Below are positions 13,323 through 31,088 of a DNA stretch of 32,000 nt, in pieces. This stretch comes from an uncultured bacterium. GTDB taxonomy: Bacteria; Margulisbacteria; WOR-1; CAVSGV01. The position numbers and the translations under genes are program-made. The DNA lies in assembly GCA_963699255.1 (NCBI GenBank), contig OY969425.1:540001-572000 (forward strand), in the 5' to 3' direction. A model generated the notes under the pieces. It did no database searches. It worked only from the letters and a program-made list of their open reading frames with translations, and was not told where the DNA came from. Every line of letters begins with the position of its first letter. Position 1 is the stretch's first letter.

Positions 13323-15773
13323 TTAAGGTTTGGGTCTTGTCCCCCATGAGAAAGGACTTGCCGATTTCCTCTTGTAGAAATATCCCCTGTCAGCGCTCAT
13401 TTGCCATGTGGGAGCAATCCCCGTACTTACATCTATCCAGCTGCCCGACAGAGAAAGGTAGGCTTTGTTGTAGTTGGTGGTCCCCGGTATCAGCTGGTAG
13501 ACCACGTCCGCGCTGAGCAGATCTCCCGATTGAGCCCCGGATTCCAAGAGATTCGAATTGTTCAATAATATAGAAGCTGCCTGTCCGGAGGCTATTAGAT
13601 TCCAGCCGGGAATGATCTGGGTCGATCCGACAAAACCTCCCCCTCCTCCTCCGATCCCGCCCCCGGGCACACTGCCGGTGGAATCATAATTATTGGAATA
13701 TACAATTGACTGGGAATAAGCCCATGCCCGATAATAATATTGCTGTCCTTTAGTAAGGCCTGTATCCGAAAAGCTCTCGGTGCTGTCAATCATGGCGCTT
13801 TGAATATAAATCGGCACTTCATCGACATTAACCGGGACACCCAATGTAGGAAGAGTGCCGGATGCAAAGGGGCATGTCGCTGACGTAAATTCGCTCGTTC
13901 CCGGTTTTCTTAGGATTATCACTCCGCCCAGATTCGAACTCGAGGGATCAAACCAGTTAAGCCTGAGACTGGTATCCGTCGCCGGCATCGCATATAAAAA
14001 GCTGACCGGATCCGGCGGCGAGGTATCATAGCTTGCCTGTGCGCCTGAAGAATATCGCCTTAAGGTTTTATCGGTCCCCGTATTATTGTGAGTAAAGATC
14101 GTGACATAATAACCAAGCAATGGATCAGGGAAAACACTGGTATCAAAAGTGTAAGTCTGATTAGTAGCTCCAGGCGTCAATCCTCTCTCTTCATAGATGG
14201 CACCTCCAACTCCGGTATCTCCGGGAGTTGTGGGATAGCTGCCTAATTTTGCCACGATTATAACTCCATCAAACCATGAGTCCGAGGGGTTAGTCCAATT
14301 GACTTTTACGCCGGCCGAAGTATTTGATCCGAATACATTTGATGCATTGTGAGGAGGGATCCCGGCATCAGCAATGATCGGCGATGCAGCCGCATAGTTC
14401 CTGCCCTGTTCGTTGGGGTAGCCGTCATAAGCGCAGCGGTCATAATTATATACATTGAAAAAATATTCTGATCCGGGTGTGAGGCTGCTCACCACCGTAC
14501 TCCCTATATCACCTGTCGCGACAACAGTTGCGGTATTTACCGTGCCGCCAACACCATAATTATTGCCATTTGAATCCCCTGCTGCGCCCACAGGCGTTAT
14601 CCCTGTCCAGGTGCTTGAGGGGTTCTGCAGGACCATACATCCCGCATAATCCGAGGCGCTCCCTTTATTCCAGTATAGAGTTACCTTGTCATTCTCCGGC
14701 ACATACCCTGTAAAACCGGTTATCGTATCCCAACTGCTGCCATTATAGTGGAACATTCTAGGCTGATTCCCATTAACCGAAATATCGGATACATTTTTAG
14801 CCGAAAAAGATGGAGAAGCGCAAGGCGTGTAATCGTGGGATTTTACCGCAGAGCTCCAGGGAGTAGAAGTTTCATTATGGTCAAGAGTATTATCCACCGC
14901 TTCAACCCTGTAGTAATAGCTCACGGGGTTTCCGGTGGTGTAATCAATAAGATCATCAGGAAATCCCCCCTGAATGCCCGTGCTTAGGCCGTTCGGGTAA
15001 CTTCCTCCGCTGATGGAAAAATCACCGCCCGCAATTAGCGTGCCTGTGCCTGAACCTGTCGTGCTCCTGTATACTTTATACCTGACATTGTTTGAATTAT
15101 AACTGGTGGCAGTGATCCCAAAAGGAGTATAGTCAGTCACTCCTGCCGTTGTCCATGAAACGTTTATCTTATTTCCCGTTTGAGCATCGGTGACTCCTCC
15201 TACACCAGCAAAACCCACCGGCGAATGCGAGGCAGCAATGTTGATCGTTTGATCATTTATCGTGCCGATTCCCAGGCCATTATGGATCACATATACGCCC
15301 GGCCCGGTTGAAAGGCGGCAGGTGTCAGGCTCCCAGCTCAAAAGCGCGGTTCCCGTGGCAGTGGGAGTGATCCTGAAAGTCAGCTGATAAATATCGGTGG
15401 CAGATGAAACATCCCATCCGGTACCACTCGTGGCTACGCCCTTCGCATATTGAACTTTGCCTTCGGAAAAGGTGGCATTGATCGATGAAACATCAAACCA
15501 GCTTGAACTCATATAATCGCCTGATACTATGGGTCGCGTATTTGTTACGTATACAAACTTGTTGAGCTCATAATCCACCCAAGCATCGATCCCCACAATG
15601 TGACGGGCACTGCTTGGAGTATATCGAATATTGATAGGCCTGTCGCTGTTTTGCTCCCAATTGTGCGAAGAGTCCGCCTCATAGAAGCCTATACTATCCG
15701 CCAAAGCGGCAGAGGCCAGCATTACAACGATCAATGGGACCAAAAGCCCAACCTCCTTAAAAAAACTTTTCAT
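13323..15773 (-). CDS. S6: secreted protein with a cohesin-like N-module, FN3-like domains, a Gly-rich linker and CTD-A
   Basis: This intact ORF is 823 aa in the track. I prefer the internal ATG at 15773 (MKSFFKEVGLLVPLIVVMLASAALA), which has GAAGGGGG upstream. It is a paralogue of S4. FN3-like segments include KINVSWTTAGVTDYTPFGITATSY, VTLYWNKGSASDYAGCMVL, VKVNWTNPSDSWFDGVIIVAK and LRLNWFDPSSSNLGGVIILRK. Confidence 0.85.
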   Translation of the reverse strand: MKSFFKEVGLLVPLIVVMLASAALADSIGFYEADSSHNWEQNSDRPINIRYTPSSARHIVGIDAWVDYELNKFVYVTNTRPIVSGDYMSSSWFDVSSINATFSEGKVQYAKGVATSGTGWDVSSATDIYQLTFRITPTATGTALLSWEPDTCRLSTGPGVYVIHNGLGIGTINDQTINIAASHSPVGFAGVGGVTDAQTGNKINVSWTTAGVTDYTPFGITATSYNSNNVRYKVYRSTTGSGTGTLIAGGDFSISGGSYPNGLSTGIQGGFPDDLIDYTTGNPVSYYYRVEAVDNTLDHNETSTPWSSAVKSHDYTPCASPSFSAKNVSDISVNGNQPRMFHYNGSSWDTITGFTGYVPENDKVTLYWNKGSASDYAGCMVLQNPSSTWTGITPVGAAGDSNGNNYGVGGTVNTATVVATGDIGSTVVSSLTPGSEYFFNVYNYDRCAYDGYPNEQGRNYAAASPIIADAGIPPHNASNVFGSNTSAGVKVNWTNPSDSWFDGVIIVAKLGSYPTTPGDTGVGGAIYEERGLTPGATNQTYTFDTSVFPDPLLGYYVTIFTHNNTGTDKTLRRYSSGAQASYDTSPPDPVSFLYAMPATDTSLRLNWFDPSSSNLGGVIILRKPGTSEFTSATCPFASGTLPTLGVPVNVDEVPIYIQSAMIDSTESFSDTGLTKGQQYYYRAWAYSQSIVYSNNYDSTGSVPGGGIGGGGGGFVGSTQIIPGWNLIASGQAASILLNNSNLLESGAQSGDLLSADVVYQLIPGTTNYNKAYLSLSGSWIDVSTGIAPTWQMSADRGYFYKRKSASPFSWGTRPKP
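13326..13625 (-). other. CTD-A, conserved ~100-aa C-terminal domain (S6 copy)
   Basis: The domain reads IPGWNLIASGQ...DVVYQLIPGTTNYNKAYLSLSGSWIDVSTGIAPTWQMSADRGYFYKRK..WGTRPKP and is preceded by PGGGIGGGGGGF. Homologous C-termini occur in S1 (two copies), S2 and S4. Confidence 0.6.
15231..15698 (-). other. cohesin-like module of S6
   Basis: This ~155-aa module follows the signal peptide directly. HIVGIDAWVDYELNKFVYV, GKVQYAKGVATSG and DIYQLTFRITPTATGTALLSWE parallel the cohesin strands seen in clostridial cohesins (I.n.DF.f.YDpnvL.., ..i.f.f.....G, G.fa.i.f.v....G...i.f). This assignment is by eye only. Confidence 0.45.
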
Positions 15774-15802
15774 ATTAAAACCCCCTTCTTTCATTTGAAC
15801 AA

Positions 15803-16885
15803 TTATCTGGGCACAAAACTCTTAGCTCCAGCCTGCCAATTTACCCTCCAGTATGGGAGGTCCCCGCTGGCAGTGATAGATCCATCCCCATCAAGATCTG
15901 AATTGGGGTCAAATCCCGTCTCACCTTGCTTTATTCCTGACTGCCAGGCAGTCTGCCAGAAGGGCAGATCTCCTGAAGATGTAACCTGTCCATCCGCATC
16001 TATATCCCCTGCCCGCAAGCTCATAGTACTGTTGGCTTCTGTAGTCATGGCATCCGGGAAAGGAGCAACCGAATAGGCCGTATAATAGTTGCCTGCTGAA
16101 GGTTCCGAAATGTTCACGGAAGCTGTCCCTCCGCCAAAAGGAACTTTATCATTTGTTATGATCGCAAGATGGTTGGGGCCGATAGTGTTTCCGGCTTTAT
16201 GCTTGATCACCAGATAAAAATCACCCGCCGCATAGATATCCACCGTACCTACTCCGGTAGTATCCAAGCTGATATATTCCGAAGTCACCATATTTCCAGG
16301 GAAAGCGGTTCCGGGATCACTGCCGTTTCGCAGCTCAACTTCTATCGTAGCCGGAACCTGAAGACCGGTGCTTGGATTATAATATCCCTGCAGGTAGGCC
16401 TTTAATGTAAGGGTCGTAGCCGGCGGATTCTCGGTAGTGGTAGTGAATGTCCAAGTATAAGGGCCGGCCAATGGATTTCCGGATATGTTCCGCACTCCGG
16501 TATCGACAGTGCAGGTTATAGTTTCACTGGTAACGAATATTCCGGTCTGGTTAAAGGTAACGGTCCTTGTACTGTCATTATAAGAAGGTTTGGTCGCATG
16601 GACACCGGTTTTATCGCCGGTCACCATAAAGTTTTCGGCTGTTACGGTGCTTCCTAATAAAGAATTATTAAAGGCAGCGGTTATATTCGGGAATAAAAAT
16701 ACTCCCGTGGCATTGCTCTCCGGAGTGGTAGAGGTCACCGCAAGGGCGCCCGTGCTGATATTGACCTCCCGGCTGGAAGAAGAACTGACATTGCCGGCAT
16801 TATCCACGGCATGTACCTCCCAGGTATGAAGACCATCACTTAAGGAGGTTTCCGGTGTTGCCGAGATACTCGAGAGATGATACAT
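15803..16885 (-). CDS. S5, C-terminal fragment (Ig-like, Big_5-type Ig, beta-sandwich, dockerin-like end); no signal peptide of its own
   Basis: The 360-aa ORF is colinear with residues ~640-983 of S3 (HTWEVHAVDNAGNVSSSSS, TPESNATGVFLFPNI, TVTFNQ, CTVDTGV..GNP..PYTW.FTT, YLQGYYN). It overlaps the upstream fragment (16836-18785) in a different frame. Together the two fragments form one frameshifted gene. Confidence 0.75.
   Translation of the reverse strand: MYHLSSISATPETSLSDGLHTWEVHAVDNAGNVSSSSSREVNISTGALAVTSTTPESNATGVFLFPNITAAFNNSLLGSTVTAENFMVTGDKTGVHATKPSYNDSTRTVTFNQTGIFVTSETITCTVDTGVRNISGNPLAGPYTWTFTTTTENPPATTLTLKAYLQGYYNPSTGLQVPATIEVELRNGSDPGTAFPGNMVTSEYISLDTTGVGTVDIYAAGDFYLVIKHKAGNTIGPNHLAIITNDKVPFGGGTASVNISEPSAGNYYTAYSVAPFPDAMTTEANSTMSLRAGDIDADGQVTSSGDLPFWQTAWQSGIKQGETGFDPNSDLDGDGSITASGDLPYWRVNWQAGAKSFVPR
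15806..16012 (-). other. dockerin-like duplicated EF-hand module of S5
   Basis: The module has two parts, DIDADGQVTSSGDLPFWQTAWQSG and DLDGDGSITASGDLPYWRVNWQAG. Each is a Ca-loop (D.D.DG.[IV]) followed by a helix, at the extreme C-terminus. Confidence 0.55.
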
Positions 16886-18785
16886 CTATATTTTTGACAC
16901 TATCGATCCACAACTCATATTTTGCCAGTCCGGAACCAAAATCCGAAGACGCTTCCCAGGAAAAAGTGGGGGTTTGAATACTTAACCATGATCCTGATTC
17001 CGGGCTTATTAGATAAACACTTGCCGGCGGCGTCATATCCACTCCAAAGTCCATCGCGGACTCATCGTTATCGCCAAAACTGACCCAGTCACCTGTATTA
17101 TCGGCAGAATCCATTACCCTGGCCTGCCAGTGATACGCTCCTTCACCCATGTTCTCAAGAGTTATTAAGCCCGTCACAGGTGTTCCGGAATATGGAACTC
17201 CTTCGCCCGTGGCTGTGACAGTGCCATTGAAATCCGTTCCTACCGGTTCTATTTCCACTTCAGGATATAACGTCGTCCCGCTTAGGGGTGAACTCATGCT
17301 CATACTGATCTCTACCGTAGACTCGGTCATCCATTCTCCGGTGGCGATCGCAGTTATACCGTCCGATCTGAATTGACCAAGCCCTGCGGGAAGGTTCGGA
17401 GCAACGATGCCGAAAGCTTCGGTAGTAAAGGAAGCGACACTGCTGTATTCGCTGGTACCGTTCACGTTCACCGCAGCGACCTTCCAGTAGTATTCCGTGG
17501 TCGCACTAAGACTGGTGAATGTCCAGGCCGCTTCATCCGTGGTAGCCACTGTATCCGCCGCAGAGTCCTGCGTACCGTAACTTATCACAAAATATCCCGT
17601 GTAGCTTCCCGTATCCCATGTGCCGTACGCGGAGTCGGTGGTTATGTTCGTTGTGACCAGGCCCTCCGGAGTCCCCGGCAGAGCATCGGAATCCGCAGAT
17701 GAAACGTATGTCGTTAAAATATTGTCGCCGTTATATGCATATATATAGTAGAAGTGCGCCTGGTCAGCTACCAGATTGGCATCCACCGTAGTGGCCGCCG
17801 TACCTGTATAGATAAGCGCCCCGCCCAATGCTTCGGGGGTACCCTCGTACACCTCGAATCCGGACTGAGCACCGCCCGATTCCCACGAAATGACACAATC
17901 ATAACCGGCGCCATTCACTCCCAAGACAGATGGATTGATCGGAGCATTAGCCAGGGTATATTTTGGTTCCGCCGTCGCATATCCGCTGTAGCCCGCTTCA
18001 TTATATGCCCTCACCCTGACCCAGTACGCTTCATTTGTGGATAATCCATAGATAGTATATAAATCGTCGCCGGCTTCAGCCGTTCCCGTAAATATGGTCA
18101 CCCATGGATCGGTCGCGGACACCTCGATACTGAACCCTTTCTCATTAATTGAATTGACCTGCCATGTAAAACTCTCGGATGTGTCGCTGAGAGCTTCCAG
18201 TGTGGCATCGCTTGGATCCGCAGGAACGGAAACGGTCACGAATTCCGAGGAAGCAAAAAATGTCGGGACCGACCAGCTCTGGGGCATTGGCGGCGCGCCC
18301 GCGTCAAGGCTGGCAGAAAGATGGGAGTCGCCGTAATAGGTGGATGATTCGATGCTGGGGCCGTTCCACGCTCTTATGTAGATATGGCTGTCATCGAGCA
18401 GGGATTGGCCGCCCACGAATTCCTTGATAAAAGCGCCGGGCCCCATGATATAAGGGGGATCGCCCAGTTCGCCCTGTCCCACAACTCCGGTCCAGATCAA
18501 GGAATCTCCGCCCGTTGCTTCTCCTGTCGTGCCGGGCGCATGGATGGCTTCATTTGACGCGTAAATGACCTGGATGACCTCTCCGGTAGGCATCTTTGCG
18601 CCGTCATGGTCATATATGATCTGGTTCGTCCCGTCCATCATGACGGTGACCGAAACAGCCTCCGCCTGCCGCGGGATGGCAAATGACCAGATACCAACGA
18701 CAAAACAGATCCCGATGATAAATTTCCAGACCGGAAATTTGATCCCGGATATCATTTTATTGCCTGATGATCTCAGATCAGCCAT
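16836..18785 (-). CDS. S5, N-terminal fragment (signal peptide, shared N-domain, FN3-like domains, Ig-like)
   Basis: The 649-aa ORF has the RBS AGGAG 7 nt upstream of its ATG. It is colinear with residues 1-~630 of S3, and the N-domain is about four fifths identical by eye. It ends ..LAKYELWIDSVKNIDV and then runs into out-of-frame sequence. Confidence 0.8.
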   Translation of the reverse strand: MADLRSSGNKMISGIKFPVWKFIIGICFVVGIWSFAIPRQAEAVSVTVMMDGTNQIIYDHDGAKMPTGEVIQVIYASNEAIHAPGTTGEATGGDSLIWTGVVGQGELGDPPYIMGPGAFIKEFVGGQSLLDDSHIYIRAWNGPSIESSTYYGDSHLSASLDAGAPPMPQSWSVPTFFASSEFVTVSVPADPSDATLEALSDTSESFTWQVNSINEKGFSIEVSATDPWVTIFTGTAEAGDDLYTIYGLSTNEAYWVRVRAYNEAGYSGYATAEPKYTLANAPINPSVLGVNGAGYDCVISWESGGAQSGFEVYEGTPEALGGALIYTGTAATTVDANLVADQAHFYYIYAYNGDNILTTYVSSADSDALPGTPEGLVTTNITTDSAYGTWDTGSYTGYFVISYGTQDSAADTVATTDEAAWTFTSLSATTEYYWKVAAVNVNGTSEYSSVASFTTEAFGIVAPNLPAGLGQFRSDGITAIATGEWMTESTVEISMSMSSPLSGTTLYPEVEIEPVGTDFNGTVTATGEGVPYSGTPVTGLITLENMGEGAYHWQARVMDSADNTGDWVSFGDNDESAMDFGVDMTPPASVYLISPESGSWLSIQTPTFSWEASSDFGSGLAKYELWIDSVKNIDVSSLEYLGNTGNLLK

Positions 18786-18815
18786 TATTAACTCCTGATA
18801 ATGACAATTATTATG

Positions 18816-20966
18816 CTACCTCGCTTCCCAGGTGAAAGGATAATTCGTGTTCCTCATCAGGAAATATCCCGCATCCGGGGTCATTTCCCATGTGGCCACC
18901 CCGCCGGTATCCTGATCGAACCATTGATTAGAAACAACGACGGTGGCCAACTTGTAATTGTTCGTTCCGGGAATGATCCTGTATATCTTGTCCCCTGATG
19001 CGGCTCCCTGCAGTATCAGAGTTGACTGGTCAAGTGTCTTTGATATTTGCTGGCCTGTGGATATCATGTTCCACCCGGGAACGATCGTTGTGGGACCCGC
19101 AAAGAGCACTCCTCCGATCCCGCCTCCAGGTAAGGCGGCGGTGGAATCGTACGCGGACGGATAATTATACGCGTCATCATTGGACCAGATACGGTAGTAA
19201 TAGGTCTCCGATGAAGACAGCCCGGTATCCTGGAAGTACTCCAGAGGACCTGAATAGATCACGACTTCCTGGGAAATCCCGGAACCTCCGACGGGGGGAG
19301 TAAATGTGGTATAGGGGTTACCCGTCAGCGGAAAATCCGATGGATTGTAAACAAATTCGCTTGTGCCGATCTTTCTTAAGATGACCACACCCAGAAAATC
19401 CGAGTCGGTCGGGTTGGTCCAATTCAGATCAACGCTCGTGCTGCTGCTTGGCAGGGCGTAGAAATACTTCACCGGAGCCGGCGCTGTTGTATCATAGCCT
19501 GCCTGCACGCCAGAAGAATACCGCCTGTGGTTAATATCCGCCGCCTTATTATATGTATATACAGTAACGTGATAATCGTTAGCAACATCGTCCAGAGGGT
19601 TCGGGCAGGCCACATTATCAAAAGTATAGGTCGTAGGATCTGTGGCAGAAGATTCATGGAACGCATATACATCTCCCGGGTTTGATGAATAGCCGTGTTT
19701 TTTTACAGCTATCCTAACTCCGTCAAAGTAGCTCTCGCCGGGGTTAGTCCAGGTGACGGTAATGCCGTTCGTATTCTTGAACGAGGTCACGGATGGCACG
19801 TTGGAAGGAGAGACGCCGGGTGTCGCAACAATAGTTAATGTAGAACTGTAGTTCCTGCCCTGCTGGCCTATCCCCGCGGAACCATCGTAGTCCTCAGCCA
19901 GGTCATAAGCCGTTATATTATAATAATATGGGACGCCGTTCTGAAGGTCAGTCGATCCATCTTTCAGCTTGGTCCTTACGAGCTGAGCTACGCTTTCCTT
20001 CGAGACCACTTTCCCATTGTTAAAAGAATACCCGTCCGGATAGTCCGTACCATTGTTATCTCCTGACGCAGATTGGAATGTGAACGGGGTCCACGGATCG
20101 GTATCGCTGCCGATGACCAGATACCCTGCCAAGTCGCTCGCGGAGGAAGGATCCCATTTCAGCGTTACCTGCTTATCACCCGGAACGTATCCCGTAAAAG
20201 AGCTTGTCGGCCCCTGCCATGTAGTTCCGTTATCGGTGGTCCAGTACATTGCCGGGGCTCCTCCCTGGAGCGACGAGGTCGGCGCGTCCGGAGCGACATA
20301 GTCGTGGGATTTCACAGTAACGGCCTGGGAATTGTTGTCTTCATTAGGAGTGACACAGTTATCAAGGGCATGCAGCATATATGTGTAGGTATAATTATGC
20401 GGCGGGCAGCAATCGTACGGCTCATTGCCTTCATATTGCCCGTTGGAATTGCCGTCATCATAGTTCGTCGCTCCCGGAGAAGATGTTTCCAGGGTTGTAT
20501 AACTGCTTTCATCGTTGTTCCTCTTGCGAAGGACTTTGAACCTTAAATTGTGCGGATCATAGGTCGTTGCAGTAATGCCATATGGGGTGACATCCGTTGC
20601 CTGGGTATTGTCCCATGTTACCTGCAGCATATTGCCGGTATCAGGATTAGGAGGCGTGACCGGATTGCTTTTTGAGTTTATCCCTACATTGGAACCCCAG
20701 GTCGGAGGAGCACTTTGTGTAATGGTTATAGTTCTGGCCGGCGTTGATCCCGTAACATCTACTCCCGCTCCGGGGGTTCTTAAAAGTTTAATGCCTGCGG
20801 TATACCAATTGAAAGAGTCGTTGGACCCGAGCTGAGCCGTAGGCGATACCAGAAATTGCAGATCATACAGGGAAACAGTTCCTGTACCGGTCGTCCAATA
20901 CTTGGCTTGCGTAGTATCCCTTGTGTATATAATGTGGCACGGAGGAGTAGTATCTGCGGATAAATT
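18816..20966 (-). CDS. S4, C-terminal fragment (rest of the cohesin-like module, FN3-like domains, CTD-A)
   Basis: The track lists 18816-20630 (604 aa, from the first ATG). The frame is open up to 20966, and the extra 112 codons (..TGTGTVSLYDLQFLVSPTAQLGSNDSFNWYTAGIKL..) align with the cohesin-like region of S6. It is a paralogue of S6. Confidence 0.75.
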   Translation of the reverse strand, partial: NLSADTTPPCHIIYTRDTTQAKYWTTGTGTVSLYDLQFLVSPTAQLGSNDSFNWYTAGIKLLRTPGAGVDVTGSTPARTITITQSAPPTWGSNVGINSKSNPVTPPNPDTGNMLQVTWDNTQATDVTPYGITATTYDPHNLRFKVLRKRNNDESSYTTLETSSPGATNYDDGNSNGQYEGNEPYDCCPPHNYTYTYMLHALDNCVTPNEDNNSQAVTVKSHDYVAPDAPTSSLQGGAPAMYWTTDNGTTWQGPTSSFTGYVPGDKQVTLKWDPSSASDLAGYLVIGSDTDPWTPFTFQSASGDNNGTDYPDGYSFNNGKVVSKESVAQLVRTKLKDGSTDLQNGVPYYYNITAYDLAEDYDGSAGIGQQGRNYSSTLTIVATPGVSPSNVPSVTSFKNTNGITVTWTNPGESYFDGVRIAVKKHGYSSNPGDVYAFHESSATDPTTYTFDNVACPNPLDDVANDYHVTVYTYNKAADINHRRYSSGVQAGYDTTAPAPVKYFYALPSSSTSVDLNWTNPTDSDFLGVVILRKIGTSEFVYNPSDFPLTGNPYTTFTPPVGGSGISQEVVIYSGPLEYFQDTGLSSSETYYYRIWSNDDAYNYPSAYDSTAALPGGGIGGVLFAGPTTIVPGWNMISTGQQISKTLDQSTLILQGAASGDKIYRIIPGTNNYKLATVVVSNQWFDQDTGGVATWEMTPDAGYFLMRNTNYPFTWEAR
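18819..19094 (-). other. CTD-A (S4 copy)
   Basis: The domain reads VPGWNMISTGQ...KIYRIIPGTNNYKLATVVVSNQWFDQDTGGVATWEMTPDAGYFLMRN..FTWEAR and is preceded by PGGGIGG. Confidence 0.55.
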
Positions 20967-21250
20967 CTATCAACGCCTTCCAGAACGGTCGTCGGTATTT
21001 CATTTGACATGGTGGGCACGCCAAGGTTAGCGAAACCATCATAATTATTATATTGCAGATGGGCGTCGAAACCCAGGATCTGATAGCTTGTGCCGGTGAC
21101 ATAGTTTATCCTTAGCGGGCGATAGCTGTTCTGCTCCCAGGTATAATTTGAAGAATCGATGGACACATCCGCATACGCGAAACCCGCAGCGCCGAATAAG
21201 AACACAAGCAGGACTCCGATCACCTTCCATTTTTTCATTTTATTCTTCAT
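20780..21250 (-). CDS. S4, N-terminal fragment (signal peptide and first part of the cohesin-like module)
   Basis: I prefer the ATG at 21250 (MKNKMKKWKVIGVLLVFLFGAAGFAYA), which has GGAGGAG upstream. The track start at 21283 overlaps the end of S3. Homology to S6 (NYTWEQNSYRPLRINY..ILGFDAHLQYN) holds to about 20967. After that this frame reads non-homologous sequence until its stop at 20780. Confidence 0.65.
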   Translation of the reverse strand: MKNKMKKWKVIGVLLVFLFGAAGFAYADVSIDSSNYTWEQNSYRPLRINYVTGTSYQILGFDAHLQYNNYDGFANLGVPTMSNEIPTTVLEGVDRIYPQILLLRATLYTQGILRKPSIGRPVQELFPCMICNFWYRLRLSSGPTTLSIGIPQALNF

Positions 21251-21266
21251 TCTTAACTCCTCCTTT

Positions 21267-24218
21267 TTATGGGACTGGGGCATAACTGTTCACCCCGTTA
21301 TTACTAAGCCAGATGCCGAAATCATCGATGCGGATCAGGCCGTCGCCGTTAAAATCCGCTCTCGGGTCGAATCCGGACTCACCGGCATTCAAGCCGTTCG
21401 CTGCCAGCCAGATGCCGAAATCGTCGATGCGGATATATGGGTCGCCATTCGCGTTCCCGCCGCGCATGCTGAGCTTTCCGTCCGTTTCCGTCCACTCCGC
21501 GCTTGGTGACGCGGTCGGAGTATATGCCGGATCGGTCCCGTCAGCCAGGTCCACAATGACCGGCCCGGACCCAAAGTTCTTTGTGCTGTTGGTTATTACG
21601 GACAGGTGGTTCGACTCGAAAGAAATGCCCGCATGTTGAACTTCAACATAGAAGCTCCCTGCCGGGACATTTATATCCGCGGTGCCGGTGCCTGTCGCAT
21701 CCAGGATGATCTCCTGAGAACCTGCGATGGTGTGAGCGGTGCCTGGATCACTGCCCTGCCGCAGCTGCACTTCTACGGTCGCCGGGGACTCCTGCGTGCC
21801 GCTGATCGCATTATAATATCCCTGCAAGTATACTTTAACGGTAACGTTGGTGGCGGGCGGGACCTCGGATGTCGTCGTAAATGACCAGGTATAAGGATAG
21901 GCCATTGGATTTCCGGCTTTATCCTGCACTCCGGTATCCACAGTGCAGGTCACGGTCTCACTTGTGGCGAATTCCCCCGCCTGATTGAACGTTACGGTCT
22001 GGGTACTGTCATTATAAGAAAGGTTCGTCGTTTCATGGGAACCGGATTTACTCCCCGTTACCTCAAAGTATTCAAATGTGACAGTGCTTTCTGTTAAGCC
22101 TTTGTTAAATGTCGCCATGATATTCGGGAACAGGAACACGCCGGTGGCATTGCTCTCCGGAGTGACCAAACTCACCGCAAGAGGAACAGTATCTATATTG
22201 ACCTCCCAGCTGGAAGAAGAACTGACATTGCCTGCAAGATCCACGGCATTAACCTCCCAGGTGTGAACGCCGCTACTTAAGGGAGCTACCGGTTCAGCTG
22301 AAGTCATCGTGGACGGGACAACTTCATTAGTGACGCCGTCTATCCACAGCTCATATTTCGCCAGGCCGGACGGCGCATCATTAGCGCCGATCCATTCAAA
22401 AGTAGGCGTTTGTGTGTTCATCCAGGTACCCGGAAGAGGGCTTTGCAGGATCGGTAAAGTAGGCGGAGTCATATCCACGCCAACATCCATAGAGGATTCA
22501 GCGTTTCCGCCAAAGCTCTCCCAGCTGCCCGTATGACCGGCGGCATCTCTTACCCTTACCTGCCAGTGATATGGCCATTCAGCTAAGTTCTCAAGAGTTA
22601 TTATGCCGGTCACAGGTGAGACGGAATAAGGGACCCCTTCGCCGGTGGCTGTGACCCTGCCGTTAAAATCCGTCCCTACCGGTTCTATTTCCACCTCAGG
22701 AGATAAAATAGAAGCGATAGGAGAAGTCATGCTCATACTGATCTCCACTGTAGACTCGTTTATCCATTCTCCGGTAGCGATCGCGGTTATCCCGTCCGAT
22801 CTGAATTGATCAAGCTCTGCGGGAAGGTTCGGAACAGGAGGCGACAAAGCTTCGGTAGTAAAGGAGGCGACACTGCTGAATTCGCTGGTACCGTTAATAT
22901 TCACGGCCGCGACTTTCCAGAAGTATTCCGTGGCCGGATTAAGCATTGTAAATGTATAAGCCGCTTCGTCCGTGGTGACCAACGCGTCCGTGACAGATTC
23001 CTGCGTCCCGTAACGTATGACATAAGATCCCGCGCCGCTCACCGCCTCCCATGTGCCGTAAGCGTCATCGGTCGTGATATTCGAGATGACCAGGCCTTCC
23101 GGGGTCCCGGGCAGGGCATCGGAATCCGCGGATGAAACATACGTCGTTAAAACATTGTCCCCGTTATAGGCATATATAAAGTAAACATTATTGGCATCGG
23201 GATCGGCATCAACGGTCGTTATCGCTGTCCCCGTATAGATCGGTGTCGCTCCCGGACTGTTCGCGGGATAATTGCGGTATACCTCGAATCCTGTCTGAGC
23301 TCCGCCGGATTCCCAGGAAATAACACAACTATAACCAGGAACATTCACACCCAGGACAGATGGAGGATTTACAGGAGCATTCGCCAGGGTATATCTCGAT
23401 TCAGCGGTCGCCGGATCGCTATAGCCGGATATATTATATGCGCTGACCCTGAACCAGTACGCCTCGTCTGTGGCTAATCCATCGGCCTCATATGAAGTGA
23501 CATTGGCATCAACCGTGGCCGTAACTATATCCGTCCAGGTTTCAGATGTGGACATCTCGATCCTGAAGCCCTGCTCGTTATTTGAATTATCCTGCCAGGT
23601 AAGCTCCATGGAAGCGGTGCCCAGTACTTCCAGCGTGGCATTGCTTGGAGCTAAAGGAGCATAAAGAGCCGCTAATTCTGTTGAAGCATAAAAAGTCGGG
23701 ACAGACCAAAATTGTGGCATCGGCGGCACGCCCGCATCAAGTGTTGTGGAAAGCTGGGAATTGCCGTAATAGGTGGATGATTCGACACTGGGGCCGTTCC
23801 ATGCCCTCACATAAATTCGGCTATAATCGATCAGCGACTGTCCGCCGGCGAATGCTTTTGTAAAAGCGCCGGGCCCCATGACAAAAGGTGGATCGCCAAG
23901 TCCGCCCTGCCCCACAACTCCCGTCCAGATCAAGGAATCTCCGCCTGTGGCTTCGCCGGTCGGGCCGGGCGCATGTATAGCTTCATCTGACGCGTAAATG
24001 ATCTGGATGACTTCTCCCGTAGGCATCTTGGCGCCGTTATGGTCATATATGATCTGGCTGGTCCCGTCCATTTGAACGTTGACCGTGACCGCAGATGCCG
24101 GAAGCATGGATCCAGATGACAGGATCCATGATACGAACAGAATCCCAATAGCCAGCTTCCAGACCGTGGATCCGTATCTGGCGATCATTTTATGATATGG
24201 CAACCATAGATCTGCCAA
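21267..24218 (-). CDS. S3: secreted protein with the shared N-domain, FN3-like domains, Ig-like and Big_5-type Ig domains, a beta-sandwich and a dockerin-like C-terminus
   Basis: This intact 983-aa ORF uses a TTG start with AAGGAG 6 nt upstream. The start is homologous to the ATG start of S5 (MADL..). The signal peptide is ..LAIGILFVSWILSSGSMLPASA. The Big_5/SbsA-type segment is TPESNATGVFLFPNIMATFNKGLTESTV..VTFNQ..CTVDTGVQDKAGNPM. Confidence 0.88.
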   Translation of the reverse strand: MADLWLPYHKMIARYGSTVWKLAIGILFVSWILSSGSMLPASAVTVNVQMDGTSQIIYDHNGAKMPTGEVIQIIYASDEAIHAPGPTGEATGGDSLIWTGVVGQGGLGDPPFVMGPGAFTKAFAGGQSLIDYSRIYVRAWNGPSVESSTYYGNSQLSTTLDAGVPPMPQFWSVPTFYASTELAALYAPLAPSNATLEVLGTASMELTWQDNSNNEQGFRIEMSTSETWTDIVTATVDANVTSYEADGLATDEAYWFRVSAYNISGYSDPATAESRYTLANAPVNPPSVLGVNVPGYSCVISWESGGAQTGFEVYRNYPANSPGATPIYTGTAITTVDADPDANNVYFIYAYNGDNVLTTYVSSADSDALPGTPEGLVISNITTDDAYGTWEAVSGAGSYVIRYGTQESVTDALVTTDEAAYTFTMLNPATEYFWKVAAVNINGTSEFSSVASFTTEALSPPVPNLPAELDQFRSDGITAIATGEWINESTVEISMSMTSPIASILSPEVEIEPVGTDFNGRVTATGEGVPYSVSPVTGIITLENLAEWPYHWQVRVRDAAGHTGSWESFGGNAESSMDVGVDMTPPTLPILQSPLPGTWMNTQTPTFEWIGANDAPSGLAKYELWIDGVTNEVVPSTMTSAEPVAPLSSGVHTWEVNAVDLAGNVSSSSSWEVNIDTVPLAVSLVTPESNATGVFLFPNIMATFNKGLTESTVTFEYFEVTGSKSGSHETTNLSYNDSTQTVTFNQAGEFATSETVTCTVDTGVQDKAGNPMAYPYTWSFTTTSEVPPATNVTVKVYLQGYYNAISGTQESPATVEVQLRQGSDPGTAHTIAGSQEIILDATGTGTADINVPAGSFYVEVQHAGISFESNHLSVITNSTKNFGSGPVIVDLADGTDPAYTPTASPSAEWTETDGKLSMRGGNANGDPYIRIDDFGIWLAANGLNAGESGFDPRADFNGDGLIRIDDFGIWLSNNGVNSYAPVP
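21270..21461 (-). other. dockerin-like duplicated EF-hand module of S3
   Basis: The module has two parts 33 codons apart, GNANGDPYIRIDDFGIWLAANG and ADFNGDGLIRIDDFGIWLSNNG. The IRIDDFGIWL parts are encoded by a 27-bp direct repeat with 26 of 27 positions identical. Confidence 0.6.
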
Positions 24219-30014: not shown

Positions 30015-31088
30015 CTATTTGAAGTAAAGGTGCAGTTTGAGAATCTCTATTGTGGAGGACTCACTATAGATCCCGCCGCCGCCGTATACCGCGCTATTTG
30101 ATTCAAAAGAGCAGTTCAAGACGACCGGAGAGGAGGAGTAGTAGCTGGCTAAACCGCCGGCGTTGTGACCTGCCCTATTTGAAATAAAATCACAGTTTTT
30201 GATGGTTGGAGAGGAATTGTCCAAACCAAGCCCGCCGCCATCTCCGCCGGAGACATAACCATTTTGTATGGTGAAGTTCTCAACGGTGGTGGCAGAACCA
30301 AGCCCCTCTCCGTGCATGCACTGGACGCTGCCTTCTCCGGATATTCTGGTAAGCGAGGGATCGTTGATCTGCGCCCAACTATCGTCGTAGCCTCCCATTA
30401 AATGGACGCCGCTTGAGAGAAAAATTGTGCCCGGAACAGTCAGAGAATATGTCCCCATCTTCACATGTATCTCATCGCCGTAGCGCATGTTCCCATTGCT
30501 CTCGGCTGAGTTAATGGTATTAAAGGCGTCATTCGTAGAGCGGCCGGTATGAGTAAAGTCATTTCCATTGATGCTGTCAACGTACCAGATCGTTGGAACA
30601 GGTATGATGCTGAACTTGCCGCTTTCACCGTACCCGCTGTTGCCGGAGGTATCTACCGCGGTGATCTTTATCTTTGCCTCCGTGGTGGCGATATTAGGAA
30701 CCGTCCAGGCATAGCTTCCACTGTTAGCTATACCCGTGACGATCGCAGTATAGGATGATCCCCCGTCTATTGAGTAAGAGATGCTGATGGGGTTTGTAAT
30801 AAGCCCCTGATCATCGGAAGCTTCCCAGGTAATATCGTAGCTGTACCCCCCGGTCCAGACATCCCCGCCTGCGGGAGAAAAGACCTCAACGGTGGGAGGC
30901 GTGATATCGGTCAGGACCGATTCAGAGCTGGTGTAACCATAATAATGGTATCCCATGTTCACTATCCCATCGTCGCCGTGGAACCTGTCCAGGTTGGTCC
31001 CGTAACCTTGCTGCCATCCAAGACCAAGTATCTGACGCCTCGCCGGTCCCGGTATTAACGCAGGGCGAGTTATTGGGAAGGTGCACAT
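30015..31088 (-). CDS. S1, middle fragment (Ig-like domain and the start of beta-helix module 2)
   Basis: In the 357-aa ORF only the part from ..ILGLGWQQGYGTNLDRFHGDDGIVNMGYHYYGY onward is homologous to the inter-module linker seen elsewhere in S1. The fragment ends inside a beta-helix repeat (..GGGGIYSESSTIE) that continues in another frame at 30046. Confidence 0.7.
   Translation of the reverse strand: MCTFPITRPALIPGPARRQILGLGWQQGYGTNLDRFHGDDGIVNMGYHYYGYTSSESVLTDITPPTVEVFSPAGGDVWTGGYSYDITWEASDDQGLITNPISISYSIDGGSSYTAIVTGIANSGSYAWTVPNIATTEAKIKITAVDTSGNSGYGESGKFSIIPVPTIWYVDSINGNDFTHTGRSTNDAFNTINSAESNGNMRYGDEIHVKMGTYSLTVPGTIFLSSGVHLMGGYDDSWAQINDPSLTRISGEGSVQCMHGEGLGSATTVENFTIQNGYVSGGDGGGLGLDNSSPTIKNCDFISNRAGHNAGGLASYYSSSPVVLNCSFESNSAVYGGGGIYSESSTIEILKLHLYFK

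What the first reader, a model, noticed from the sequence alone, without database searches (positions are those of the whole stretch)
13323..24218. Tandem ~5.4-kb duplication of the two-gene module, with mosaic divergence and reciprocal disruption
Unit 1 is S3+S4 (24218-18816) and unit 2 is S5+S6 (18785-13323). Divergence is very uneven. A 107-nt stretch that I aligned by eye (17294-17400 against 22727-22833) differs at only 9 positions. The 3' thirds of S3 and S5, and the whole of S4 and S6, are much more diverged; the CTD-A copies of S4 and S6 are roughly half identical. This suggests gene conversion homogenising the 5' parts, or diversifying pressure on the connector ends. In unit 1 the dockerin gene is intact and the cohesin gene is broken. 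In unit 2 the reverse holds. If the breaks are real, the only intact dockerin (S3) and the only intact cohesin (S6) come from different units.
Basis: partly seen in the sequence, partly recalled or inferred. Interest (0 to 1): 0.6.

Follow-up and report, generated by a model that had tools for sequence, protein, structure and literature searches.

The report
Paralogous surface-gene pair; frame breaks are artefacts
Two neighbouring two-gene units for large secreted surface proteins are real, old paralogues whose front halves were homogenised by gene conversion, but the "reciprocal gene breaks" are almost certainly single-base assembly errors at a probably methylated AGATCT site.

Summary
The tandem pair of about 5.4-kb two-gene units (S3+S4, S5+S6) is real and colinear. 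Divergence is mosaic. About 2.35 kb of S3/S5 is 75% identical with unsaturated synonymous sites. The last ~150 codons of S3/S5 and all of S4/S6 are at synonymous saturation.

A related metagenome contig (L036) carries the same array with all four genes intact. A four-sequence test against it shows concerted evolution between S3 and S5 at codons ~186-560. It shows plain orthology for the tails and for gene 2. The connector ends are the most conserved parts between orthologues (dN/dS 0.08-0.17), so diversifying selection is not supported.

The "reciprocal disruption" is not biology.
- The S5 break is one extra T inside an AGATCT site and is absent from a second assembly.
- S4 needs two surplus bases removed: one is absent from that assembly, the other again lies in AGATCT.
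- The same lesion splits essential rpoC and the neighbouring giant gene.
- The genome encodes a BglII-family restriction-modification pair.

Earlier follow-ups in this scan reached the same artefact verdict elsewhere in this genome. The "dockerin" label has only sub-threshold support. The "cohesin" label has none.

The parts
21267..24218 (-). S3, gene 1 of unit 1 (983 aa). Order of parts: signal anchor, shared N-domain, fn3 repeats, Big_13/Big_5 Ig-like domains, a beta-rich pre-tail domain, and a dockerin-like double calcium-loop tail.
   Evidence: ORF. Pfam fn3 and Big_5. The tail hits the dockerin chain 2y3n_B at E=0.0017.
18816..21283 (-). S4, gene 2 of unit 1. The assembly splits it into pieces of 167 and 604 aa. 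It becomes one 821-codon frame if the surplus bases at 20967 and 20951 are left out.
   Evidence: Intact orthologues of 803-806 aa exist (P0009, P0010, P0011).
15803..18785 (-). S5, gene 1 of unit 2. The assembly splits it into 649 and 360 aa by one surplus T at 16868.
   Evidence: The frame is continuous at this site in the Logan contig L016.
13323..15794 (-). S6, gene 2 of unit 2 (823 aa). Order of parts: signal peptide, an orphan N-domain, fn3-like repeats, and CTD-A.
   Evidence: No Pfam family matches. P0007 is 68% identical overall.
21735..24085 (-). Less diverged tract in S3. It pairs with 16304-18652 in S5.
   Evidence: blastn gives 75.1% over 2368 nt. Four-fold-site identity is 0.58 inside the tract, against 0.25-0.31 outside it and 0.26 expected at saturation.
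16304..18652 (-). Less diverged tract in S5, the partner of 21735-24085.
22539..23663 (-). S3 codons ~186-560. This is the part with positive evidence of concerted evolution with S5, meaning gene conversion after the split from the L036 lineage.
   Evidence: Informative sites are 86 concerted, 13 orthology and 14 for the third topology.
21270..21539 (-). Dockerin-like tail of S3. It holds two repeated calcium-loop and helix segments.
   Evidence: Alignment A2 and the PDB dockerin hit. There is no Pfam Dockerin_1 hit. It is 85% identical in protein to the R1 tail, with dN/dS 0.08.
15806..16075 (-). Dockerin-like tail of S5, of a different type from S3 (36% identical).
   Evidence: Pfam Dockerin_1 scores 18.5 bits, below the 22.9 cut-off. 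Alignment A2.
15210..15695 (-).
   Evidence: No Pfam hit at E<=10. No cohesin among PDB sequence hits. Zero hits in 1.84 billion representative proteins. The AlphaFold2 model has pLDDT 32.
16864..16870 (.). AGATACT on the + strand (AGTATCT in the gene's sense). This is an AGATCT site with one surplus base and is the S5 frame break.
20949..20955 (.). AGTATCT on the + strand. This is an AGATCT site with one surplus base inside the S4 break zone. A second surplus base, G, lies at 20967.

Best explanation
S3+S4 and S5+S6 are two old paralogous two-gene units in a tandem array. They encode large secreted, Ig/fn3-rich surface proteins.

Each unit has a type-specific connector cassette. This is the last ~150 codons of gene 1, with a dockerin-like double calcium-loop tail, plus the whole of gene 2, with an orphan head domain. 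Each cassette type diverged long before the split from related species and is kept under strong purifying selection.

The fn3-rich body of gene 1 has been homogenised between the two units by gene conversion. This is clear for codons ~186-560. The overall younger tract runs from codons ~45 to ~830.

All four genes are most likely intact in the organism. The frame breaks in S4 and S5 are single-base insertion errors of the consensus assembly. They concentrate at AGATCT, a palindrome that this organism probably methylates through a BglII-family restriction-modification system.

What is shown: the duplication, the mosaic, the phylogenetic incongruence, and the artefact pattern.
What is inferred: that the tail of gene 1 binds the head of the adjacent gene 2; that the sequencing platform was nanopore-like; and that AGATCT is methylated.
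For: Duplication and mosaic:
-. Four-fold identity is 0.58 (n=303) in the tract, against 0.25 and 0.31 elsewhere and 0.26 expected at saturation.

Gene conversion:
-. L036 carries the array R1-R4 with all genes intact.
- Site counts for the concerted, orthology and third topologies are 86/13/14 at codons 186-560 and 9/59/3 at codons 830-990.
- Gene 2 gives 22/95/31, favouring orthology of S4 with R2.

Old, conserved cassettes:
- In a genome of another genus (G003, L007), a 298-aa protein has an S3-type tail (46% to S3, 40% to S5).
- It is followed at once by an S4-type head (56% to S4, 37.5% to S6).
- Orthologue dN/dS is 0.08-0.17 at the connector ends.

Artefact:
- The S5 surplus T and the S4 surplus G are absent from Logan contigs that are 99.93-99.98% identical.
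- rpoC and ileS are also split, while rpoB, dnaE, secA and gyrA are intact.
- An AGATCT+1 7-mer sits in 4 of 5 independently evidenced breaks, against 0.14 expected (Poisson p about 1e-5), and in 5 of 7 other suspect junctions.
- Removing the surplus base gives paralogue-consistent protein in the giant gene and consensus-like protein in rpoC.
- All four 7-mer forms occur in sense orientation, which fits a DNA palindrome and not an mRNA signal.
- AGATCT is depleted, 506 observed against 746 expected.
- A BglII-family endonuclease (70 bits, found in 0 of 14 control genomes) lies next to an N6/N4 methyltransferase.
- Modification-linked consensus errors are documented for nanopore data (PMC6591954).
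Against:
- The Logan contig also keeps the AGATACT in S4, so S4 is still out of frame there.
- The Logan contig carries its own lesion at another AGATCT in S5, at 15897-15894. If that run is accurate short-read data, these would be real variants.
- The platform of the genome and of run ERR10755942 is unknown.
- One S4 surplus base (20967) and the ileS break are not at AGATCT.
- Third-position divergence inside the 2.35-kb tract is not significantly uneven on its own (p 0.06-0.38).
- Conversion is therefore demonstrated only for codons 186-560. R1 lacks its 5' end, so codons 1-185 are unresolved.
- The binding of tail to head is untested. Both AlphaFold2 models failed (pLDDT 32 and 40).
Confidence: 0.8

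Rival explanations
1. The frame shifts are real. S4 and S5 are young pseudogenes, leaving a non-cognate intact pair (S3 tail, S6 head).
For: Both assemblies leave S4 out of frame. The Logan contig has a different lesion near the S5 end. That could mean several independent inactivations in the population.
Against: The same AGATCT+1 lesion splits essential rpoC, and ileS is also split. The rate of breaks in essential genes (2 in 19 kb) matches the rate here. Each gene has no other stop or lesion. The S4-type and gene-1 relatives in the related array L036 are all intact and under purifying selection. The discordances between the two assemblies fall on AGATCT sites.
Confidence: 0.07
2. There was no gene conversion. 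The whole unit duplicated once, and the uneven divergence reflects only different selective constraint or diversifying selection on the connector ends and gene 2.
For: Inside the tract the all-site unevenness is significant but the third-position unevenness is not, so part of the pattern does reflect constraint. The heads and tails are the least similar parts between paralogues.
Against: Synonymous four-fold sites differ sharply: 0.58 identity against saturation. The four-sequence topology switches along the gene. The connector ends have the lowest dN/dS between orthologues. S3-type and S4-type cassettes already exist in another genus.
Confidence: 0.04
3. The shared body is not due to conversion between resident copies. 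It is due to unequal crossing-over or unit turnover, or to import of a cassette from a related strain, so that bodies and cassettes were recombined as modules.
For: P0007 has an S6-like body (65-86% identical) but an S4-type CTD-A (71% against 48%) and is followed by another long gene. The relative's second unit, R3/R4, is not orthologous to S5/S6: R4 is 49% identical to S4 and 35% to S6. The G003 tail protein has no long body. A second locus has S2' and S7' adjacent with no units between them.
Against: The tract ends inside a domain (codon ~830) and inside the fn3 body (codon ~565), not at module borders. This is what homologous conversion tracts do. The two mechanisms are not exclusive.
Confidence: 0.12
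4. AGATCT sites are real hypermutable or phase-variable switches, or recoding signals, that turn surface genes on and off.
For: Many of the affected genes encode surface proteins.
Against: rpoC is hit by the same lesion. The 7-mers occur in all orientations relative to the coding strand. There is no repeat tract that could slip. Only about 2% of AGATCT-class sites are affected.
Confidence: 0.02

Closest known systems
Concerted evolution (partial gene conversion) in tandem paralogous surface-protein genes
   Same: Paralogues within a genome group together over a bounded internal tract, while the flanking parts keep orthology. The tract ends ignore domain borders.
   Different: The exchange is old: four-fold identity of 0.58 is about the level of the species split (0.46-0.55). 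It involves only two copies here, with no sign of a silent-cassette or antigenic-variation system.
Cohesin-dockerin pairs, including non-cellulosomal ones
   Same: Gene 1 ends in two repeated calcium-loop and helix segments that align to a solved dockerin (2y3n_B). The next gene starts with a type-specific head that is co-inherited with the tail across genera.
   Different: The Pfam Dockerin_1 cut-off is not reached. The head has no cohesin signal at all. No carbohydrate-active enzymes are present. The fold could not be modelled.
Modification-linked systematic consensus errors in long-read (nanopore-type) assemblies
   Same: Errors concentrate at one short palindromic motif, hit essential genes, and coincide with a cognate restriction-modification system. 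Such errors are described for Dcm sites in PMC6591954.
   Different: Here the motif is AGATCT and the error is a single inserted A/T. The platform and the modification were not verified.

Membership tests
Dockerin type I (Pfam PF00404) | Match to the family model above its curated cut-off | tested here: not met
   The S5 tail scores 18.5 bits against a cut-off of 22.9. The S3 tail has no Dockerin_1 hit, only EF-hand_6 at E=0.013.
Dockerin type I (Pfam PF00404) | Two tandem ~22-residue segments, each an EF-hand-like calcium loop followed by a helix | tested here: met
   Both tails show the duplicated D-x-[DN]-x-D-G loop and following segment (alignment A2). The S3 tail aligns over both repeats to dockerin chain 2y3n_B at E=0.0017.
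Dockerin type I (Pfam PF00404) | Dockerin fold and calcium-dependent binding to a cohesin | tested here: inconclusive
   The AlphaFold2 model of the S3 tail has pLDDT 39.6 and is unusable. Binding cannot be tested with these tools.
Cohesin (Pfam PF00963) | Match to the family model, or to solved cohesin sequences | tested here: not met
   There is no Pfam family at E<=10 for the S6 head. No cohesin appears among the PDB sequence hits. There are zero hits at E<=0.001 in 1.84 billion representative proteins.
Cohesin (Pfam PF00963) | Nine-stranded beta-sandwich (jelly-roll) fold | tested here: inconclusive
   The AlphaFold2 model of the S6 head, built from 4 sequences, has pLDDT 32. No fold search was run on it.
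Gene conversion / concerted evolution between paralogues | Within-genome paralogues group together against positional orthologues over a bounded tract, with the opposite topology outside it | tested here: met
   Site counts are 86/13/14 at codons 186-560 and 9/59/3 at codons 830-990. The change point is at codon ~565, reached by 0 of 1000 shuffles.
Gene conversion / concerted evolution between paralogues | Lower synonymous divergence inside the tract than outside | tested here: met
   Four-fold identity is 0.58 inside, against 0.25 and 0.31 outside and 0.26 expected at saturation. The change point is at 21731/16294, reached by 0 of 500 shuffles.
Pseudogene (real inactivation of S4 and S5) | The lesion is reproduced in independent sequence data and is not shared with essential genes | tested here: not met
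   The S5 lesion and one S4 lesion are absent from the Logan contigs. The same lesion class splits rpoC.
Modification-linked consensus error of a long-read assembly | Errors enriched at one motif, essential genes affected, and a matching methyltransferase system encoded | tested here: met
   Four of 5 evidenced breaks carry AGATCT+1, against 0.14 expected. rpoC is affected. A BglII-family endonuclease lies next to an N6/N4 methyltransferase.
Modification-linked consensus error of a long-read assembly | Raw reads or signal show the motif is modified and that the surplus base is not in the molecules | not testable with these tools

The most novel reading that the evidence does not exclude
The array encodes at least two orthogonal connector pairs. 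In each pair, a dockerin-like tail of gene 1 would bind the sequence-orphan head of the adjacent gene 2. These pairs are co-inherited as cassettes across genera of an uncultured small-genome lineage. The display body of gene 1 is free to be exchanged by conversion. If true, this is a non-cellulosomal, self-assembling surface scaffold with a receptor domain of a new sequence family.
Probability: 0.3. Interest if true: 0.6.

Novelty: new member of a known kind. Interest (0 to 1): 0.3.

Why it matters
There are two practical points.

First, the eye-catching part of the finding, reciprocal loss leaving a mismatched pair, is a sequencing artefact. The same artefact affects many genes of this closed genome, including rpoC. 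Any pseudogene, recoding or phase-variation claim in this assembly must first be checked against AGATCT+1 sites.

Second, what remains is a clean small example of how modular surface-protein arrays evolve. Connector cassettes are kept type-specific and conserved, while the repeat-rich body is homogenised by conversion. This gives a testable prediction: S3 tail with S4 head, and S5 tail with S6 head, form specific pairs.

Tried and rejected
- Exact-protein look-ups with guessed start codons failed for S6 from its first ATG, for the 413-aa gene and for S2.
- Scans of genome contigs and metagenome contigs with S6 found only distant fn3-like matches and no close array.
- The contig carrying P0007 has no DNA on hand.
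- HMMER with the S6 head against 1.84 billion representatives found nothing.
- Both AlphaFold2 jobs gave unusable models (pLDDT 32 and 39.6), so no fold search was run.
- A genome-wide count of ORF gains at all AGATCT+1 7-mers is barely above control motifs (25 of 2572 against 0.5-0.9%). The enrichment is seen only when one conditions on junctions with independent evidence of a break.
- A list of overlapping same-strand frames (368 junctions) was too unspecific to estimate the genome-wide error rate.
- A search for nested younger tracts at third positions inside the 2.35-kb tract was not significant. The nested structure appeared only with the four-sequence test.
- A same-class genome with an S3-like tail (L010) shows no detectable S4/S6-like gene downstream.
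- A paper search for the run accession found nothing.
Full report
**Setting.** The window is genome positions 540001-572000 of a closed 1.77-Mb single-contig genome. On the minus strand a giant beta-helix/fn3 gene comes first. It is followed by S2, S3, S4, S5, S6 and S7, and then by housekeeping genes.
- S3 (24218-21267, 983 aa) and S6 (15794-13323, 823 aa) are open.
- S4 is split into 21283-20780 and 20630-18816.
- S5 is split into 18785-16836 and 16885-15803.
- Read through, S5 is 991 codons and S4 is 822, matching their partners.

**Observation: the duplication and the mosaic are real.**
- blastn aligns only 24085-21735 with 18652-16304, 2368 nt at 75.1%. The rest gives only short weak matches.
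- On codon alignments S3/S5 are 63% identical in protein and S4/S6 are 39%.
- At four-fold degenerate sites of conserved residues, third-base identity is 0.58 (n=303) over S3/S5 codons 0-820.
- The same measure is 0.25 (n=36) in the last ~150 codons and 0.31 (n=157) in S4/S6. The expectation at saturation is 0.26.
- A maximum chi-square scan places the change at S3 21731 / S5 16294, reached by 0 of 500 shuffles.
- Inside the tract, all-site divergence is uneven (p<=0.001). Third positions alone are not (p 0.06-0.38). Part of the unevenness there is therefore due to differing protein constraint.

**Gene conversion is supported by a direct test.**
- The last protein search found intact S4-type proteins of 803-806 aa in other data sets.
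- One of them lies on a 10.8-kb JGI contig (L036). That contig carries the same kind of array, R1 to R4, with every gene open.
- L021, from the same sample, is syntenic with S7 and the genes downstream of it. Its housekeeping proteins are 81-88% identical to the window's, and four-fold identity is 0.46-0.55.
- In a four-sequence alignment (S3, S5, R1, R3), informative sites were counted for three groupings: (S3,S5|R1,R3), (S3,R1|S5,R3) and the third topology.
  - At S3 codons 186-560 the counts are 86, 13 and 14.
  - At codons 560-830 they are 25, 42 and 19.
  - At codons 830-990 they are 9, 59 and 3.
  - The change point is at codon ~565, reached by 0 of 1000 shuffles.
- The fn3-rich body has therefore evolved in concert within each genome, while the tails are old orthologous types.
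- Gene 2 shows orthology of S4 with R2: the counts are 22, 95 and 31, and the proteins are 71% identical.
- Codons 1-185 cannot be resolved, because R1 lacks its 5' end.

**The connector cassettes are old and conserved, not diversifying.**
- In a genome of another genus of the same family (G003, L007), a 298-aa protein consists of a signal peptide, the pre-tail domain and an S3-type tail. The tail is 46% identical to S3 and 40% to S5.
- It is followed at once by an S4-type head, 56% identical to S4 and 37.5% to S6.
- Between orthologues, the S3 tail against R1 is 84% identical with dN/dS 0.09. The S4 head against R2 is 78% identical with dN/dS 0.17. The middle of S4 is only 58% identical.
- This rejects current diversifying pressure on the connector ends. 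It also shows that S4-type genes are maintained by selection.
- Module exchange does occur in the family. P0007 is S6-like over residues 1-690 (65-86% identical), but its CTD-A is S4-type, 71% identical against 48% to S6.
- R4 is nearer to S4 than to S6, so unit content differs between relatives.

**The labels.**
- The S3 tail aligns over both calcium-loop repeats to a solved dockerin, 2y3n_B, at E=0.0017.
- The S5 tail scores 18.5 bits on Pfam Dockerin_1, below the 22.9 cut-off. S3 has no such hit.
- The S6 head has no Pfam hit at E<=10, no cohesin among PDB sequences, and no homologue in 1.84 billion representative proteins.
- Both AlphaFold2 models were unusable, with pLDDT 32 and 39.6.
- 'Dockerin-like' is therefore a fair description. 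'Cohesin' is unsupported.

**The frame breaks.**
- A Logan assembly of run ERR10755942 has two contigs over this region.
- L016 equals window 18707-13264 at 99.93% identity. It lacks the T at 16868, so the sequence there reads as an AGATCT site and the S5 frame is continuous. It has its own small lesion at another AGATCT, at 15897-15894.
- L017 equals window 24572-18987 with a single difference: the G at 20967 is absent. S4 is still out of frame there.
- Leaving out G20967 and the A at 20951, the middle base of an AGATACT, gives one 821-codon frame.
- A 1.6-kb pgk contig is identical to the window.

**The same lesion elsewhere in the genome.**
- The neighbouring giant gene breaks at window ~31029 and ~30042 on AGATCT+1 7-mers. 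Removing the base at ~31029 gives a sequence that matches the paralogous modules.
- Essential rpoC is split at an AGATTCT. Removing one base restores the conserved segment.
- ileS is also split, though not at this motif.
- rpoB, dnaE, secA and gyrA are intact.
- That makes two breaks in about 19 kb of essential genes. This is the same order as the two or three breaks in the 11 kb examined here.
- The four 7-mers AGTATCT, AGATACT, AGAATCT and AGATTCT occur 454 times in the genome.
- They lie in 4 of 5 breaks that have independent evidence, where 0.14 is expected. They also lie in 5 of 7 further suspect junctions.
- They appear in all orientations relative to the coding strand. This fits a DNA palindrome and not an mRNA recoding signal.
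- AGATCT is depleted, 506 observed against 746 expected.
- The genome encodes a BglII-family endonuclease (PF09195, 70 bits, none in 14 control genomes) beside an N6/N4 methyltransferase.
- Consensus errors concentrated at methylated motifs are documented for nanopore data (PMC6591954).
- After I had made these tests, I found that earlier follow-ups of this scan had reached the same verdict for rpoC and for another giant gene of this genome.

**Caveats.**
- The sequencing platforms are unknown.
- The Logan contigs may come from the same reads as the genome.
- No raw reads could be inspected.
- S4 remains out of frame in both assemblies.

**Verdict.** The tandem paralogous units and their mosaic are real, and conversion of the gene-1 body is supported. 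Diversifying selection and reciprocal pseudogenisation are not supported. The finding is an ordinary, well-behaved case of concerted evolution in a surface-protein array, seen through an assembly that carries systematic single-base errors.

Noticed in passing
L033/L034 (genome 952993-954326, minus strand): A BglII-family restriction endonuclease (PF09195, 70 bits) lies directly beside an N6/N4 DNA methyltransferase. This is probably an AGATCT-specific restriction-modification system. AGATCT is depleted in the genome (506 observed against 746 expected).
   Followed up: partly
window 30040-30046 and 31027-31033: The giant beta-helix/fn3 gene upstream is cut into pieces at AGATCT+1 7-mers. Together with pieces beyond the window (junctions at genome 573842-574002 and 579871-579925), it would form one frame of about 28.5 kb.
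   Followed up: partly
genome 1738514-1738587 (ileS): Essential ileS is split by one surplus base in a CTTCTC context that is not an AGATCT site. Not all consensus errors in this assembly are tied to the motif. The surplus G at window 20967 is a second such case.
   Followed up: partly
genome 734115-736920 (L003): A second locus has an S2-like gene and an S7-like gene directly adjacent, after another split giant gene, with no S3-S6 type units between them. The S2/S2' CTD-A copies are 86% identical. The N-domain of S7' is 71% identical to those of S3 and S5.
   Followed up: partly
P0007 (JGI sample 3300075153, 4.5-kb contig, no DNA on hand): This is a chimeric relative. It has an S6-like head and body but an S4-type CTD-A, and it is followed 24 nt later by another long gene. 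The pattern suggests unequal crossing-over inside such arrays.
   Followed up: partly
L036:5547-9638: The relative's second gene 1 (R3, 1363 aa) is about 370 aa longer than S5. The extra length is an internal repeat of the fn3 region (roughly S3 codons 180-485). Its tail is of a third type.
   Followed up: no
L007:263-1159 (genome G003): A minimal form of gene 1 exists here, a 298-aa protein with only a signal peptide, the pre-tail domain and the dockerin-like tail. It lies next to pdxJ and is followed by an S4-type gene.
   Followed up: partly
L016:2805-2815 (window 15894-15897): The Logan contig differs from the window by a one-base gap plus two substitutions exactly at an AGATCT site in the second calcium-loop repeat of S5. 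This would shift its last ~30 codons.
   Followed up: partly
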